A program made the position numbers and the translations under genes. Below are positions 59,216 to 64,000 of a stretch of DNA of 64,000 bases, piece by piece (position 1 is the stretch's first letter; each line of letters opens with the position of its first letter). The stretch lies in the NCBI GenBank assembly GCA_018371455.1, contig JAHAKV010000005.1, positions 32,158 through 96,157 of the forward strand. Reading direction: 5' to 3'. The DNA comes from Campylobacter concisus (lineage in GTDB: Bacteria > Campylobacterota > Campylobacteria > Campylobacterales > Campylobacteraceae). Under the pieces are notes generated by a model. It saw only the letters and a program-made list of their open reading frames with translations, had not been told where the DNA came from and did no database searches.

Positions 59216-59905
59216 ATGCAAGAGTATGATATTTTAGATGTTTTATCAAACAAAAAGGTCCTTTGCTTAGAGGATGAAGAGGCGATTTTGCGAAATATCT
59301 GCGCGTCACTTGAGCTATTTTTTGCTGAGGTGACAGGCGTGCAAGACGGCTCTGAGGCGCTTGAGCTCGCACTAAGCGATGCCTATGATGTTTTGGTGCT
59401 TGATATAAGCGTGCCAAATATCGACGGTCTTGAGATCGCTAAAAAAGTAAGAACTATCAATCAAAAAATCCCTATCGTAATACTCTCAAGCCACGTCGAG
59501 CAAGAGTATCTGTGGCGCGCGGTTGAGCTAAAGATCACAAGATATCTTGCAAAACCATACGATAAAAAATCTTTTGTTAAAGCACTTGAAGATGTGGCTT
59601 TTGAGCTAGTTGGACGCACACCAACTATCAGGCTAAATAACGAGCTTGAGTATGATTTTGGCAAAAAAGCGCTTTATGTAAATGGCGAAATTTCTCATCT
59701 AAGTAAGAGCGAGAGCAAGCTTTTGGAGTACTTTTTAAACAACAAAAACCAAACTATCACTTATGAGCAAATTTTTGACTACATCTGGGACTACGAGCAG
59801 CCGACAAAAGAGGCTATAAAGACGATCGTAAAAGAGCTTAGAAGAAAGCTTGGCAAAGATGTGATCAAAAATTTATACGGCGTGGGCTATCTTTGTGAGA
59901 TATAA
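59216..59905 (+). CDS. mccR: OmpR-family response regulator (MccR-like)
   Basis: Receiver domain (phospho-acceptor D in VLVLDIS) plus a winged helix; immediately upstream of the kinase and the octaheme cytochrome. Confidence 0.6.
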   Translation: MQEYDILDVLSNKKVLCLEDEEAILRNICASLELFFAEVTGVQDGSEALELALSDAYDVLVLDISVPNIDGLEIAKKVRTINQKIPIVILSSHVEQEYLWRAVELKITRYLAKPYDKKSFVKALEDVAFELVGRTPTIRLNNELEYDFGKKALYVNGEISHLSKSESKLLEYFLNNKNQTITYEQIFDYIWDYEQPTKEAIKTIVKELRRKLGKDVIKNLYGVGYLCEI

Positions 59906-61322
59906 ATTTCAGCTAATAGTCGGTGCTTTTATCTTTGTCTATCTGCTAGTTTCGGCACTTGTTTTAAATTTTTACAACGATCTTGCGATGAAAGATGCCA
60001 AAAAAGAGGCGTATTATGTTTTAGAGGGCATAAATTCTGTAAGAGAGTACATCGCTGGAGTTCAGCGCCCGCTAATCGAGCAGTTAAAAGAGCAGGGCGT
60101 CTTAAAAGAGGACTTTTTTGACGAGAGACTTCTATCATCTTCATATATAAGCCGTGAAATTTACAACATCCAAAAGAAAAAATACAACCTAGAATTTGAC
60201 TACAAGCTAGTTGCCATCGCTCCGCTAAATAAAGCCCACGAGCCAAATGAATTTGAAGCTGGCGTCTTACATGGCTTTAAAGAGAATAAATTTAAAGAAT
60301 TTGTAAAGATAATAAAAGATGAAAATGGCTCACAGCTCTTTGTGGGTCTGCCTATAAAAAACCAAAGTCCAAGCTGTCTAGCCTGTCATAGCAGTGCAAA
60401 TGCCCCACAACAAATGCTAGAAAAATACGGCATGGAGGGCATAGAGATCCCAGACGTGAACGAAACGGTCGCGATGATCTCTTTTAAGATACCAATCCGC
60501 GCTATTTTTACCTACCATTTGCAAGAGGTCATCGTCATAATGAGCGCCATAACGCTTATCTTTGGGCTATTTTTGCTACTTGTTTATAAGATGCACAGGC
60601 GAGGCGAGGAGAGCAAAAAGCAGACTGAGCAGCTAATGATACATCAAAGCCGTCTAGCCTCGATGGGCGAGATGATAGGCAATATCTCGCACCAGTGGAA
60701 GCAGCCGCTTGCTCAGATAAGCTCATCTTTAATAAATTTAGAGCTTTATCAGGAGCGAAAAAAGCTTGATGAGGCGAAAATTTATGAGTTTATAGAAGAG
60801 ACAAGCAAGCAGATAAATTTCATGTCAGAAACTGTTGATGACTTTAAAAATTTCTTTAGTCCAAATACCTTGAGAAAAGAGTTTAAGGTGCTTGAAGTGA
60901 TAAATCAAACGATAAAAATTTTAAACGCAACGCTTAAAAAGTATCAGATCGAAGTGCAGCTTGACGTGAGAGAAAATTTTGAGGTATTTGCAAATTTTAA
61001 TGAGATAATCCAAATTTTAATAAACATCATAAACAACGCCAAAGACGCATTTAAACAAAGCTACACAAAGCCAAGAGTGATAAAGATAAGCGCCTTTTTA
61101 AAAGATGGCAGAAAGAATTTATGCGTGCAAAATAACGCAGGAGCGATAAAAAATTCATTTTTAAAGGTCATCTTTGAGCCACACTTTAGCACAAAAGAGA
61201 GCGGTAGCGGGCTTGGGCTATATATGAGCCGTCTTATCGCTCGCAAAAACAACGCCCTAATCTTTGCTAAAAATGTGGATGAAAACCACGTTGCATTTAC
61301 AATTAGTTTCGAAAATTTATAA
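59895..61322 (+). CDS. mccS: Sensor histidine kinase (MccS-like) with periplasmic CxxCH motif
   Basis: Two TM segments flank a periplasmic domain containing CLACH (60375-60389); H-box ISHQWKQPL; HATPase_c region (…GSGLGLYMS…). Confidence 0.6.
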   Translation: MRYKFQLIVGAFIFVYLLVSALVLNFYNDLAMKDAKKEAYYVLEGINSVREYIAGVQRPLIEQLKEQGVLKEDFFDERLLSSSYISREIYNIQKKKYNLEFDYKLVAIAPLNKAHEPNEFEAGVLHGFKENKFKEFVKIIKDENGSQLFVGLPIKNQSPSCLACHSSANAPQQMLEKYGMEGIEIPDVNETVAMISFKIPIRAIFTYHLQEVIVIMSAITLIFGLFLLLVYKMHRRGEESKKQTEQLMIHQSRLASMGEMIGNISHQWKQPLAQISSSLINLELYQERKKLDEAKIYEFIEETSKQINFMSETVDDFKNFFSPNTLRKEFKVLEVINQTIKILNATLKKYQIEVQLDVRENFEVFANFNEIIQILINIINNAKDAFKQSYTKPRVIKISAFLKDGRKNLCVQNNAGAIKNSFLKVIFEPHFSTKESGSGLGLYMSRLIARKNNALIFAKNVDENHVAFTISFENL

Positions 61323-61417
61323 TTTGTTAAATTTCCCCCTTTTCTGCCCTTTTTCGGTGTTAAGATTATCAGTATGAAATCATTTTGATTTTAGGATAAA
61401 AATTCAAAGGAGGAGAC

Positions 61418-63484: not shown

Positions 63485-63528
63485 CATTTAGGGGCTAGTT
63501 TTAGCCCCTTTAATCTTAAGGGTTTGAA

Positions 63529-64000
63529 ATGAAAAATGGGTTTTTAAAATGTTCGCTACTTCTTAGCCTAAGTGTGGCTAGCCTCTTAGCAAATGTCGAT
63601 ACAAACGACTCTTATGCCATAGGCGCAACAAGTGGCGGATATGTTTTAAAAGGACTGCTAGATCAAAAGCAACTAGGTGTTGGCTATGACGCTGATGCAG
63701 TGATAAAAGGCTTTAGCGATGCGCTAAAGAGCGAGCTAAAACTAAGTGATGATGAGATAGCAAAGCTACTAAACAAAAGGGCTGAAAGCTTAGAGAAGAT
63801 AGTAAAAGAAAAAGAGGCTGCCAAGCTAAAAGAGAATTTAGCCCAAGGCAAAGCCTATATGGAAAAAAATGCAAAAAACAAAAATGTAAAAACAACAAAA
63901 TCAAATTTACAATATGAGATCATAAAAAGTAGCTCAAAAGGGGCTACTCCAAAGTCTGAGAGTATCATCATAGTAAATTATAAAGCAAGCTTTGTTGATG
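63529..64000 (+). CDS. mccB: FKBP-type peptidyl-prolyl isomerase (MccB-like), partial at window end
   Basis: Signal peptide plus FkpA/Mip-like N-terminal dimerisation region (…YAIGATSGGYVLKGL…). The ORF runs off the window end. Confidence 0.55.
   Translation, partial: MKNGFLKCSLLLSLSVASLLANVDTNDSYAIGATSGGYVLKGLLDQKQLGVGYDADAVIKGFSDALKSELKLSDDEIAKLLNKRAESLEKIVKEKEAAKLKENLAQGKAYMEKNAKNKNVKTTKSNLQYEIIKSSSKGATPKSESIIIVNYKASFVD

What the first reader, a model, noticed from the sequence alone, without database searches (positions are those of the whole stretch)
59216..64000. mcc-type sulfite respiration locus: two-component system, octaheme MccA and PPIase
The 688-aa cytochrome carries seven CxxCH motifs plus C-X15-CH (63095-63148), a heme-binding arrangement so far known only from the MccA sulfite reductase family of Wolinella/Shewanella. 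The gene order (OmpR-type regulator, sensor kinase, octaheme cytochrome, FKBP-type PPIase) mirrors the W. succinogenes mccRS-mccAB arrangement. That would make this a respiratory sulfite-reduction module in a Campylobacter-like genome. The window ends before mccC/mccD and the dedicated heme lyase (CcsA1/MccL), which would be expected downstream.
Basis: partly seen in the sequence, partly recalled or inferred. Interest (0 to 1): 0.7.

Follow-up and report, generated by a model that had tools for sequence, protein, structure and literature searches.

The report
Campylobacter concisus sulfite-respiration (mcc) gene cluster
The end of this window is the start of a well-known type of gene cluster that lets some bacteria "breathe" sulfite and turn it into hydrogen sulfide, here in the human mouth and gut bacterium Campylobacter concisus; it is a clear orthologue of the Wolinella system, not a new kind of system.

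Summary
The 688-aa protein has seven CxxCH motifs plus one C-X15-CH at nt 63095-63148.

The cytochrome is 76% identical over its full length to the crystallised Wolinella succinogenes sulfite reductase MccA (PDB 4RKM). All eight haem motifs are kept. The only two other cysteines of the mature protein are conserved across the family and are the presumed Cu(I) ligands.

The window comes from Campylobacter concisus. A public contig that is 99.96% identical over the last 10 kb continues past the window end. It carries the rest of mccB, mccC (NrfC-like FeS protein with a Tat signal), mccD (NrfD-like) and a fused CcsBA haem lyase. After these come a Sel1-repeat protein, NosL, an FtsX/ABC pair and a conserved membrane protein. 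The same gene order occurs in Wolinella, Sulfurospirillum and Malaciobacter.

This is a known system in a much-sequenced species, and a 2013 C. concisus genomics paper already noted a sulfite reductase. Sulfite respiration by C. concisus itself has not been shown in anything I could read.

Two smaller points go beyond the finding. The sensor kinase carries a periplasmic haem-c Cache (Tll0287-like) domain. A C-rich tandem repeat upstream of mccA is conserved across genera.

The parts
59216..59905 (+). mccR: OmpR/PhoB-type response regulator, 229 aa
   Evidence: Pfam Response_reg 8.7e-22 and Trans_reg_C 4.8e-16. 71% identical over the full length to the regulator upstream of mccA in Wolinella sp.. 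Present in 52 of 52 fully flanked loci.
59895..61322 (+). mccS: sensor histidine kinase, 475 aa. Layout: TM1, a periplasmic Tll0287-like (sCache_haem) domain, TM2, then the kinase core (HATPase_c; HisKA match below Pfam's cut-off). Overlaps mccR by 11 nt.
   Evidence: Pfam Tll0287-like 3.4e-25 (89.6 bits against a cut-off of 24.1), HATPase_c 1e-08, and HisKA only 19.2 bits against a cut-off of 26.9. Hydrophobic segments near residues 6-24 and 204-232. 50% identical to the Wolinella sp. counterpart.
60375..60389 (+). CLACH haem-c binding motif (residues 161-165) in the periplasmic domain of MccS
   Evidence: A CxxCH sits at the aligned position in all 9 orthologues examined from Campylobacter spp. 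and Wolinella. The periplasmic domain has no other cysteine.
61296..61323 (+). Promoter-like TTTACA-16 nt-TATAAT at the 3' end of mccS. Uncertain.
   Evidence: 11 of 12 consensus matches. The scan as a whole found no more sites than shuffled sequence (13 against 11.3). The TTTACA lies in conserved MccS C-terminal codons.
61332..61354 (+). C-rich tandem repeat TTTCCCCCTTTTCTGCCCTTTTT, with CCCTTTT units at 61337-61343 and 61347-61353. Candidate MccR operator.
   Evidence: Conserved upstream of mccA in Campylobacter groups, Wolinella, Sulfurospirillum and Malaciobacter, at varying distance from the start codon, while the flanking intergenic sequence diverges. That MccR binds it is inference only.
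61377..61391 (+). Palindrome AAATC-N5-GATTT between the repeat and the ribosome-binding site. Function unknown.
   Evidence: Kept in the C. concisus, C. showae-group and Wolinella sequences. Absent from the 85%-identity Campylobacter group, Sulfurospirillum and Malaciobacter.
61418..63484 (+). mccA: octahaem cytochrome c sulfite reductase precursor, 688 aa, GTG start, N-terminal Sec-type signal
   Evidence: E=0 and 1273 bits to PDB 4RKM MccA. 76% identity. CxxCH motifs at nt 61838, 62315, 62426, 62489, 62663, 62795 and 62861.
62606..62608 (+). Codon of Cys397 (GPGCGSEGS), presumed Cu(I) ligand
   Evidence: Invariant in the 18-sequence family alignment. Identical local context in 4RKM. The ligand role rests on my recollection of Hermann et al. 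2015, which is not held.
62894..62896 (+). Codon of Cys493 (MMSCENFY), presumed second Cu(I) ligand
   Evidence: Conserved in at least 90% of the 18 sequences. Identical local context in 4RKM.
63095..63148 (+). C560-X15-C576-H577 (CARTSWADKDMKDNKGCH), the unconventional binding site of haem 8
   Evidence: C560, G575, C576 and H577 are invariant across the family. The ending is CX12NKGCH, as described for Shewanella SirA (PMC6976685).
63490..63509 (+). Hairpin AGGGGCTA-GTTT-TAGCCCCT followed by TTAATCTT, between mccA and mccB. Terminator-like or attenuator-like.
   Evidence: 8 pairs, 5 of them G-C. Its function is inferred.
63529..64000 (+). mccB, 5' part: periplasmic FKBP-type peptidyl-prolyl isomerase. 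157 of 252 codons; cut by the window end.
   Evidence: FKBP_N 3.4e-20 in the window. The full gene in L001 has FKBP_N plus FKBP_C (1.5e-23).

Best explanation
Window 59216-64000 is the upstream half of the Campylobacter concisus mcc cluster, a respiratory sulfite-to-sulfide reduction system orthologous to that of Wolinella succinogenes.

Proposed working, with each step marked as shown or inferred:

1. Sensing (inferred). The membrane kinase MccS senses a periplasmic signal through a haem-c-bearing Cache domain. The signal is most likely sulfite. MccS phosphorylates the OmpR-type regulator MccR.

2. Induction (inferred). MccR~P activates transcription from the mccS-mccA intergenic region. The best operator candidate is the conserved C-rich tandem repeat at 61332-61354.

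3. Export and maturation (genes shown, roles inferred). MccA is exported by Sec. Seven haems are attached at CxxCH sites. The eighth is attached at CX15CH by the cluster's own CcsBA-type synthase. A Cu(I) ion is inserted between Cys397 and Cys493, probably with help from the downstream NosL-like protein and the FtsX/ABC pair. MccB, an FKBP isomerase, assists folding.

4. Electron flow (by homology to the Wolinella and Shewanella systems). Electrons from H2 or formate oxidation enter the menaquinone pool. They pass through MccD (NrfD-type quinol dehydrogenase) and MccC (Tat-exported FeS protein with ferredoxin-type Cys motifs) to MccA. MccA reduces sulfite by six electrons to sulfide at the haem-copper site.

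5. Physiology (inferred). In C. concisus this would finish the chain tetrathionate to thiosulfate to sulfite to H2S, and would contribute to the species' characteristic H2S production.
For: - MccA identity: E=0 over the full length to the solved MccA and 76% identity. All haem ligand residues, CX15CH, C397 and C493 are conserved.
- Organism and spread: identical protein in many C. concisus genomes; 85-88% identical in C. showae and other Campylobacter.
- Downstream genes on a 99.96%-identical contig: FKBP; an NrfC-like protein with an SRRAFFK twin-arginine signal and 17 Cys; NrfD at 7.8e-60; and a CcsBA fusion with a WGRYWGWD motif that matches the Helicobacter hepaticus CcsBA structure 7S9Y at 1.7e-177.
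- Synteny: NosL (Pfam 1.6e-23), FtsX and ABC follow. The whole order is the same in Wolinella sp., Sulfurospirillum and Malaciobacter. It is present in 50-52 of 52 fully flanked loci.
- Independent support for a copper-delivery role: in Morganella the mccA neighbourhood carries NosL-NosD-NosF-NosY.
- MccS haem motif conserved in all orthologues examined. Pfam Tll0287-like domain. This family was recently shown to be haem-c Cache sensors (PMC12889525).
- Physiological context: C. concisus uses tetrathionate and thiosulfate as acceptors and makes much H2S (PMC6155014).
Against: - No experiment on C. concisus sulfite respiration was found in the searchable literature.
- Some Sulfurospirillum species that encode an mccA-like gene are reported unable to use sulfite as an acceptor (PMC4794192). 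Presence of the gene therefore does not guarantee the phenotype.
- The downstream genes are seen on a near-identical public contig, not in the window itself.
- The Sel1-repeat gene is truncated in some C. concisus contigs.
- The signal sensed by MccS, the MccR binding site, the promoter and the roles of MccB, NosL and the ABC pair are all inferred.
- The promoter scan was no better than shuffled sequence.
- I could not check whether C. concisus makes 8-methylmenaquinone. From memory, Wolinella needs it for sulfite respiration.
Confidence: 0.88

Rival explanations
1. The locus is a true mcc orthologue, but in C. concisus it does not support growth. It acts only as a sulfite detoxifier or electron sink, or it is poorly expressed or cryptic.
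For: Sulfurospirillum species with mccA-like genes are reported not to use sulfite as an acceptor (PMC4794192). The Campylobacterota respiration review states that most such reductases are electron sinks that do not themselves build membrane potential (PMC6682613). The Sel1 accessory gene is truncated in some C. concisus contigs.
Against: All core genes are intact and conserved at 97-100% protein identity across dozens of C. concisus genomes, which indicates purifying selection. A dedicated regulator pair and maturation genes are kept. Even an 'electron sink' coupled to hydrogenase or formate dehydrogenase conserves energy.
Confidence: 0.12
2. The cytochrome is a different octahaem enzyme of the Otr, octahaem nitrite reductase or Hao type, acting on tetrathionate, nitrite or hydroxylamine.
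For: Octahaem enzymes share haem packing. Otr is described as structurally close to MccA/SirA (PMC12949373). Pfam sees only generic multihaem domains.
Against: 76% identity to MccA itself. No Otr, Hao or octahaem nitrite reductase chain appears in the PDB search, even at E up to 1. The CX15CH motif and both extra cysteines are present and conserved. The genetic context is mccBCD plus a haem lyase.
Confidence: 0.02
3. MccRS does not sense sulfite. Its haem-c Cache domain reports NO, sulfide or periplasmic redox state, and the mcc genes are induced indirectly.
For: The only characterised signalling-type sCache_haem receptor behaves as an NO sensor (PMC12889525). Like that receptor, MccS lacks the axial cysteine of Tll0287.
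Against: mccRS sits directly next to mccA in Campylobacter, Wolinella, Sulfurospirillum and Malaciobacter. From memory of Kern et al. 2011 and Eller et al. 2019 (not held), mcc induction in Wolinella depends on sulfite and on MccR.
Confidence: 0.15

Closest known systems
Wolinella succinogenes MccA and the mcc gene cluster (PDB 4RKM/4RKN; Kern et al. 2011 and Hermann et al. 2015, cited through PMC6976685 and PMC6682613)
   Same: 76% identical MccA with the same eight haem sites and both extra cysteines. In a Wolinella sp. genome the gene order is the same: mccR-mccS-mccA-mccB-mccC-mccD-ccsBA-Sel1-NosL-small ORF-FtsX-ABC-317-aa membrane protein.
   Different: The haem-8 motif ends NKGCH rather than AKGCH. 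In C. concisus NosL is a separate 152-aa protein preceded by a variable 178-aa ORF, whereas in Wolinella sp. it is part of a 353-aa protein. The host is a human oral and gut bacterium rather than a rumen bacterium. Activity is untested.
Shewanella oneidensis SirA and the sir cluster (PMC6976685)
   Same: Same MccA family, about 50% identity. CX12NKGCH motif. FeS (SirC) and NrfD-like (SirD) partners.
   Different: Gammaproteobacteria use System I (Ccm-type) haem lyase components. In the Morganella locus I examined, these are CcmF/CcmH, a thioredoxin, a TPR protein and a rhodanese, plus NosLDFY in place of the FtsX-type ABC pair. No adjacent Tll0287-type kinase is present there.
Octahaem tetrathionate reductase (Otr)
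   Same: Octahaem periplasmic cytochrome with superimposable haem arrangement (PMC12949373).
   Different: Otr has no copper site (PMC12949373). No detectable sequence match to this protein in the PDB search.
NrfABCD nitrite reductase module
   Same: MccC and MccD score best against the NrfC and NrfD models: 223 and 229 bits, both below the equivalog cut-offs. The quinol-FeS-multihaem electron path has the same logic (PMC8076601).
   Different: The catalytic subunit is MccA, not the pentahaem NrfA. The C. concisus literature has mislabelled these genes as 'Nrf' (PMC6155014 and PMC3765806).
sCache_haem (Tll0287/DUF3365) sensor domains (PMC12889525)
   Same: The MccS periplasmic domain matches the family above the Pfam threshold and has the defining CxxCH.
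   Different: The described signalling member is an NO sensor. That paper reports no link to sulfite or to mcc clusters (no mention of 'sulfite' or 'MccS').

Membership tests
MccA/SirA octahaem cytochrome c sulfite reductase | Full-length homology to the biochemically and structurally characterised W. succinogenes MccA | tested here: met
   phmmer E=0, 1273 bits, query residues 5-688 against chain residues 17-702. BLASTP 518/686 = 76% identity with 4 gaps.
MccA/SirA octahaem cytochrome c sulfite reductase | Seven CXXCH motifs plus one CX15CH motif (haem 8) | tested here: met
   One search gives the positions. All Cys and His of the eight motifs are invariant in 18 family members.
MccA/SirA octahaem cytochrome c sulfite reductase | Two conserved non-haem cysteines that hold the active-site Cu(I) | tested here: met
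   C397 is invariant and C493 is at least 90% conserved. Their local context is identical to 4RKM. They are the only non-motif cysteines after the signal region. Their role as Cu ligands comes from my recollection of Hermann et al. 2015; the paper is not held.
MccA/SirA octahaem cytochrome c sulfite reductase | Periplasmic location (N-terminal signal peptide) | tested here: inconclusive
   The N-terminus MRNLHKALAGLLMGVSIFASQA looks like a Sec signal by eye. No signal-peptide predictor was available.
MccA/SirA octahaem cytochrome c sulfite reductase | Six-electron reduction of sulfite to sulfide; copper content; homotrimer | not testable with these tools
   Needs enzyme assays, metal analysis and a structure.
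mcc gene cluster (epsilonproteobacterial type) | mccB (FKBP isomerase) directly downstream of mccA | tested here: met
   FKBP_N in the window. FKBP_N plus FKBP_C in the full gene on L001.
mcc gene cluster (epsilonproteobacterial type) | mccC (NrfC/PsrB-like FeS protein) and mccD (NrfD/PsrC-like membrane subunit) | tested here: met
   They lie outside the window, on L001, which is 99.96% identical over the shared 10 kb. NrfC model 2.9e-66 and NrfD model 1.1e-67. Twin-arginine signal in MccC.
mcc gene cluster (epsilonproteobacterial type) | A cluster-encoded System II haem lyase (CcsA1) dedicated to the CX15CH site | tested here: inconclusive
   An 872-aa ResB+CcsA fusion with a WWD motif follows mccD. 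Its specificity for CX15CH, and the existence of a second housekeeping ccsBA elsewhere in the genome, could not be tested.
mcc gene cluster (epsilonproteobacterial type) | Adjacent two-component system mccRS | tested here: met
   71% and 50% identity to the pair at the same position in Wolinella sp.. Present in 52 of 52 fully flanked loci.
Otr / Hao / octahaem nitrite reductases | Sequence homology to those families and absence of a CX15CH equivalent | tested here: not met
   None of these chains appears in the PDB search at E up to 1. CX15CH is present.
sCache_haem (Tll0287-like, PF11845) sensor domain, for MccS | Extracytoplasmic Cache-type domain carrying a conserved CXXCH | tested here: met
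   PF11845 at 89.6 bits against a cut-off of 24.1. The domain lies between two hydrophobic segments. CxxCH is conserved in 9 of 9 orthologues. Haem attachment itself was not tested.

The most novel reading that the evidence does not exclude
MccS is a haem-c Cache (sCache_haem) kinase that lacks the axial cysteine, and it senses sulfite (or SO2/bisulfite) directly at its haem iron. That would make it the first haem-based sulfite sensor. It would act through MccR on the C-rich tandem repeat upstream of mccA that is conserved across genera. Alongside this, the conserved downstream set of Sel1-repeat protein, NosL, small ORF, FtsX/ABC pair and 317-aa cysteine-bearing membrane protein would be a copper-insertion machine for MccA. 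That machine would be non-homologous to the NosDFY machine, which occupies the same place in gammaproteobacterial clusters.
Probability: 0.3. Interest if true: 0.55.

Novelty: already known. Interest (0 to 1): 0.22.

Why it matters
C. concisus is an oral and intestinal bacterium linked to inflammatory bowel disease, and it is known for strong H2S production. An intact, tightly conserved MccA system gives a concrete enzymatic route from sulfite to H2S. The sulfite could come from the diet, from the host, or from thiosulfate and tetrathionate reduction.

It also corrects loose labels in the C. concisus literature, where these genes appear as 'Nrf' or 'Dsr'.

The system itself is textbook for Wolinella and Shewanella, so the value lies in annotation and physiology, not in concept. 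The haem-c sensor domain of MccS and the conserved operator-like repeat are cheap, testable leads on how sulfite is sensed.

Tried and rejected
- Primary papers not held: Kern 2011, Hermann 2015, Kern 2010. Statements about Cu ligands, MccL, sulfite induction and 8-methylmenaquinone therefore rest on secondary citations or on memory, and are marked so.
- Literature searches for MccL, MccD, MccS and MccR returned only unrelated acronyms. A whole-word search for 'MccA' together with 'concisus' found no paper.
- The genome-contig scan kept only the best 80 loci, all Campylobacter, so W. succinogenes itself was not retrieved. I used a Wolinella sp. MAG reached through the search for homologous proteins and the look-up of encoding contigs instead.
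- The sigma-70 scan found 13 promoter-like sites against 11.3 expected, so it carries no weight as a whole. I first took TTTACA-16-TATAAT (61296-61323) as the mccA promoter. I downgraded it because the TTTACA lies in conserved MccS C-terminal codons and the conserved C-rich repeat lies downstream of it.
- The MCP gene just upstream (57335-59047) was considered as part of the module and rejected. It is absent from another C. concisus contig (L002) and from the Wolinella, Sulfurospirillum and Malaciobacter clusters.
- orf178 upstream of nosL was considered a core component and rejected. It is found in only 21 of 52 loci and has no match in Wolinella.
- The 317-aa membrane protein has no Pfam, NCBIfam or PDB match.
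- No structure prediction was run, because a 76%-identical crystal structure exists.
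Full report
**1. Observation**

The ORF list gives four co-directional genes on the + strand:
- 59216-59905, 229 aa.
- 59895-61322, 475 aa, overlapping the first gene by 11 nt.
- 61418-63484, 688 aa, GTG start, with AAAGGAGG at 61406-61413.
- An ORF starting at the ATG at 63529 that runs off the window end.

A direct motif count on the 688-aa protein finds CxxCH at residues 141, 300, 337, 358, 416, 460 and 482. It also finds one C-X15-CH (C560 to C576-H577). This maps to nt 63095-63148, exactly the coordinates in the finding. 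Apart from two cysteines in the signal region (23, 24), the only other cysteines are C397 and C493.

**2. What the proteins are**

- Regulator and kinase. Pfam gives Response_reg + Trans_reg_C for the first protein, so it is OmpR-type. For the second it gives a Tll0287-like domain and HATPase_c; the HisKA match is weak and below Pfam's cut-off (19.2 against 26.9 bits). For the truncated last ORF it gives FKBP_N.
- Cytochrome. It hits only generic multihaem models in Pfam and NCBIfam. Against PDB sequences it matches W. succinogenes MccA (4RKM/4RKN) at E=0 and 1273 bits over residues 5-688. Nothing else scores below E=0.37. BLASTP against the 4RKM sequence gives 518/686 = 76% identity with 4 gaps.
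- Family conservation. I aligned 18 family members spanning Campylobacter, Wolinella, Sulfurospirillum, Halarcobacter, Malaciobacter, Sulfurimonas, Shewanella, Morganella, Parasutterella and Ferrimonas. Every Cys and His of the seven CxxCH motifs is invariant. So are C560, G575, C576 and H577 of the CX15CH motif, and C397. C493 is conserved in at least 90%.
- Copper site. C397 (GPGCGSEGS) and C493 (MMSCENFY) sit in stretches identical to the crystallised enzyme. As I recall from Hermann et al. 2015, these two cysteines hold the active-site Cu(I). That paper is not held; secondary sources confirm only that MccA is a haem c-copper enzyme (PMC7558416; PMC12949373).
- Haem-8 motif. It ends NKGCH, as in Shewanella SirA, not AKGCH as in Wolinella (PMC6976685).

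**3. Where the window comes from and what lies beyond it**

The exact 688-aa protein occurs on several public metagenome contigs. Contig L001 matches window 54000-64000 at 99.96% identity over 10,001 nt, so window position 64000 equals L001 position 12583. A scan of species-representative genomes finds the protein at 97-100% identity in dozens of Campylobacter concisus genomes. It is 85-88% identical in C. showae and other, mostly oral, Campylobacter MAGs. The window is therefore C. concisus chromosome.

Downstream in L001 lie, in order:
- The complete FKBP isomerase (252 aa; FKBP_N + FKBP_C).
- A 223-aa NrfC-like FeS protein (TIGR03149, 2.9e-66; 17 Cys; twin-arginine signal SRRAFFK).
- A 309-aa NrfD protein (7.8e-60).
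- An 872-aa ResB+CcsA fusion with the tryptophan-rich motif WGRYWGWD. It matches the Helicobacter hepaticus CcsBA structure 7S9Y at 1.7e-177.
- A 273-aa Sel1-repeat protein.
- A 178-aa ORF.
- A 152-aa NosL protein (Pfam 1.6e-23; weak PDB hits to NosL of the NosDFY-L complex).
- A 61-aa ORF.
- An FtsX-type permease and its ABC ATPase.
- A 317-aa polytopic membrane protein with no family or PDB match.

It is met.

**4. Comparison with other genomes**

A Wolinella sp. genome carries the same thirteen genes in the same order. Pairwise identities to C. concisus are:

| Gene | Identity |
|---|---|
| MccR | 71% |
| MccS | 50% |
| MccA | 83% |
| MccB | 52% |
| MccC | 71% |
| MccD | 63% |
| CcsBA | 49% |
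| Sel1 protein | 61% |
| NosL domain | 55% |
| FtsX | 67% |
| ABC | 60% |
| 317-aa protein | 67% |

Sulfurospirillum and Malaciobacter show the same architecture.

I then checked the 52 loci that have full 10-kb flanks. mccR, mccS, mccA, mccB, mccC, ccsBA, nosL, ftsX and abc are found in all 52. mccD and orf317 are found in 51, and the Sel1 gene in 50. The 178-aa ORF is found in only 21, so it is not a core component.

The gammaproteobacterial version in Morganella differs in its accessory genes. It has CcmF/CcmH/thioredoxin (System I lyase), a rhodanese and a TPR protein. Most informative, it has NosL-NosD-NosF-NosY after mccD. A canonical copper-centre assembly set sits exactly where the epsilonproteobacterial clusters have NosL plus an FtsX-type ABC pair. 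This supports, but does not prove, a copper-delivery role for the latter.

**5. Mechanism**

Shown here:
- The gene set.
- The cofactor-binding motifs.
- The export signals (Tat motif in MccC; Sec-like N-termini in MccA, MccB and NosL).
- The cross-genus synteny.

Taken from the characterised Wolinella and Shewanella systems (PMC6976685, PMC8076601, PMC6682613):
- MccD oxidises menaquinol.
- MccC relays electrons.
- MccA reduces sulfite to sulfide in one six-electron step.
- A dedicated lyase attaches haem to CX15CH.
- Energy is conserved mainly by the donor enzymes.

Inferred for C. concisus:
- H2 or formate is the donor. The organism is strongly H2-dependent and respires tetrathionate and thiosulfate (PMC6155014).
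- Mcc would then dispose of the sulfite released by thiosulfate reduction and add to the species' hallmark H2S output.

**6. Regulation: two points beyond the finding**

(a) The sensor domain. The periplasmic domain of MccS matches Pfam Tll0287-like (89.6 bits, cut-off 24.1) and carries CLACH at residues 161-165. A CxxCH is present at the aligned position in all nine orthologues examined, and the domain has no other cysteine. A 2026 preprint shows that this family (DUF3365/Tll0287, renamed sCache_haem) consists of Cache domains with covalently bound haem c. It also shows that a signalling-type member lacking the axial cysteine behaves as a small-ligand (NO) sensor. The preprint does not mention sulfite or mcc (PMC12889525). 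MccS is therefore a candidate haem-based sulfite sensor. This is inference.

(b) The intergenic region. An alignment of the mccS-mccA intergenic region from six Campylobacter groups and Wolinella, extended to Sulfurospirillum and Malaciobacter, shows one element that survives where the rest diverges. It is a C-rich tandem repeat (C. concisus TTTCCCCCTTTTCTGCCCTTTTT, 61332-61354; CCCTTTT units about one helical turn apart), at variable distance from the start codon. Tandem direct repeats at helical-turn spacing are what OmpR/PhoB-family regulators typically bind (general knowledge), so this is the best MccR operator candidate.

Other regulatory features:
- A palindrome AAATC-N5-GATTT (61377-61391) is kept in the C. 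concisus, C. showae-group and Wolinella sequences. It is absent from the 85%-identity Campylobacter group, Sulfurospirillum and Malaciobacter.
- The best sigma-70-like match (61296-61323, 11/12) lies upstream of the repeat and inside conserved MccS codons. The scan as a whole was no better than shuffled sequence. I do not rely on it.
- A stem-loop (63490-63509) between mccA and mccB could lower read-through into the accessory genes. This is also inference.

**7. Novelty**

The enzyme family, its unusual haem site, its copper centre and its gene cluster are established. Public annotation already names close homologues: C. suis 'Dissimilatory sulfite reductase MccA' and Shewanella 'SirA'.

For C. 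concisus specifically:
- A 2013 comparative-genomics paper noted a sulfite reductase converting sulfite to H2S. It also noted NrfC/NrfD 'linked to nitrite and sulfite respiration', citing Kern et al. 2011 (PMC3765806).
- A 2018 paper listed 'possibly sulfite reductase (Nrf)' and 'Dsr' (PMC6155014).
- No open-access paper contains both 'MccA' and 'concisus'.
- I found no experimental test of sulfite respiration in this species.

I therefore class the finding as already known, with a modest annotation and physiology gap.

**8. Verdict**

The locus is an ordinary, intact member of a known system. Interest is low (0.22). The most novel reading still open is that MccS senses sulfite through its haem, together with a non-NosDFY copper-insertion module. 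I give that about 0.3 probability and moderate interest if true.

Noticed in passing
window 59895-61322 (CLACH at 60375-60389): The mcc-linked sensor kinase has a periplasmic Tll0287-like / sCache_haem domain. Its CxxCH is conserved in all Campylobacter and Wolinella orthologues examined, and it has no axial cysteine. The 2026 preprint that defines this haem-c Cache family does not mention sulfite or mcc.
   Followed up: partly
window 61332-61354; also L087, L088, L089 upstream of mccA: A C-rich tandem repeat (CCCTTTT units about 10-12 nt apart) is conserved upstream of mccA across Campylobacter, Wolinella, Sulfurospirillum and Malaciobacter, while the surrounding intergenic sequence diverges. 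It is a candidate MccR operator.
   Followed up: partly
window 61377-61391: Palindrome AAATC-N5-GATTT between the C-rich repeat and the mccA ribosome-binding site. It is kept in the C. concisus, C. showae-group and Wolinella sequences but not in the 85%-identity Campylobacter group, Sulfurospirillum or Malaciobacter. Function unknown.
   Followed up: no
L001 17136-21849 (downstream of the window end): Behind the haem lyase gene lies a conserved set: Sel1-repeat protein, NosL, a ~61-aa ORF, FtsX permease, ABC ATPase and a 317-aa cysteine-bearing polytopic membrane protein with no family or PDB match. Morganella has NosL-NosDFY at the same place, which suggests a copper-insertion role.
   Followed up: partly
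L003 17136-17348, L004 9936-10148, L007: In some C. concisus contigs the Sel1-repeat gene of the cluster is reduced to a ~70-aa fragment. This is natural variation in an accessory gene.
   Followed up: no
window 57335-59047: A methyl-accepting chemotaxis protein (dCache_2/sCache_2 + HAMP + MCPsignal) lies directly upstream of mccR. It is absent from another C. concisus contig (L002) and from the clusters of other genera, so it is a strain-variable neighbour and not part of mcc. A long AT-rich hairpin (59048-59077) follows it.
   Followed up: partly
window 40631-45489 (- strand) and about 44000-46000: dnaA (44179-45489), probably dnaN (42958-44025, not scanned against any family library) and gyrB (40631-42943) lie on the minus strand. 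Cumulative GC skew reaches its minimum at about 44-46 kb, so the chromosomal replication origin is probably here, about 14-16 kb from the mcc genes.
   Followed up: partly
L002 4930-5479 and L003 3035-3597 (between the flagellar hook gene and the Na+/H+ antiporter gene; corresponds to window about 54340-55050): Some C. concisus contigs carry a ParE-type toxin gene with a small partner gene at this position. L001, which is near-identical to the window, has none called there.
   Followed up: no
window 24559-24718: Rfam match to the Helicobacter antisense RNA family HPnc0260 (85 bits) on the + strand, overlapping a tRNA-Val(GAC) gene on the - strand. It probably reflects the tRNA complement, not a separate RNA gene.
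   Followed up: no
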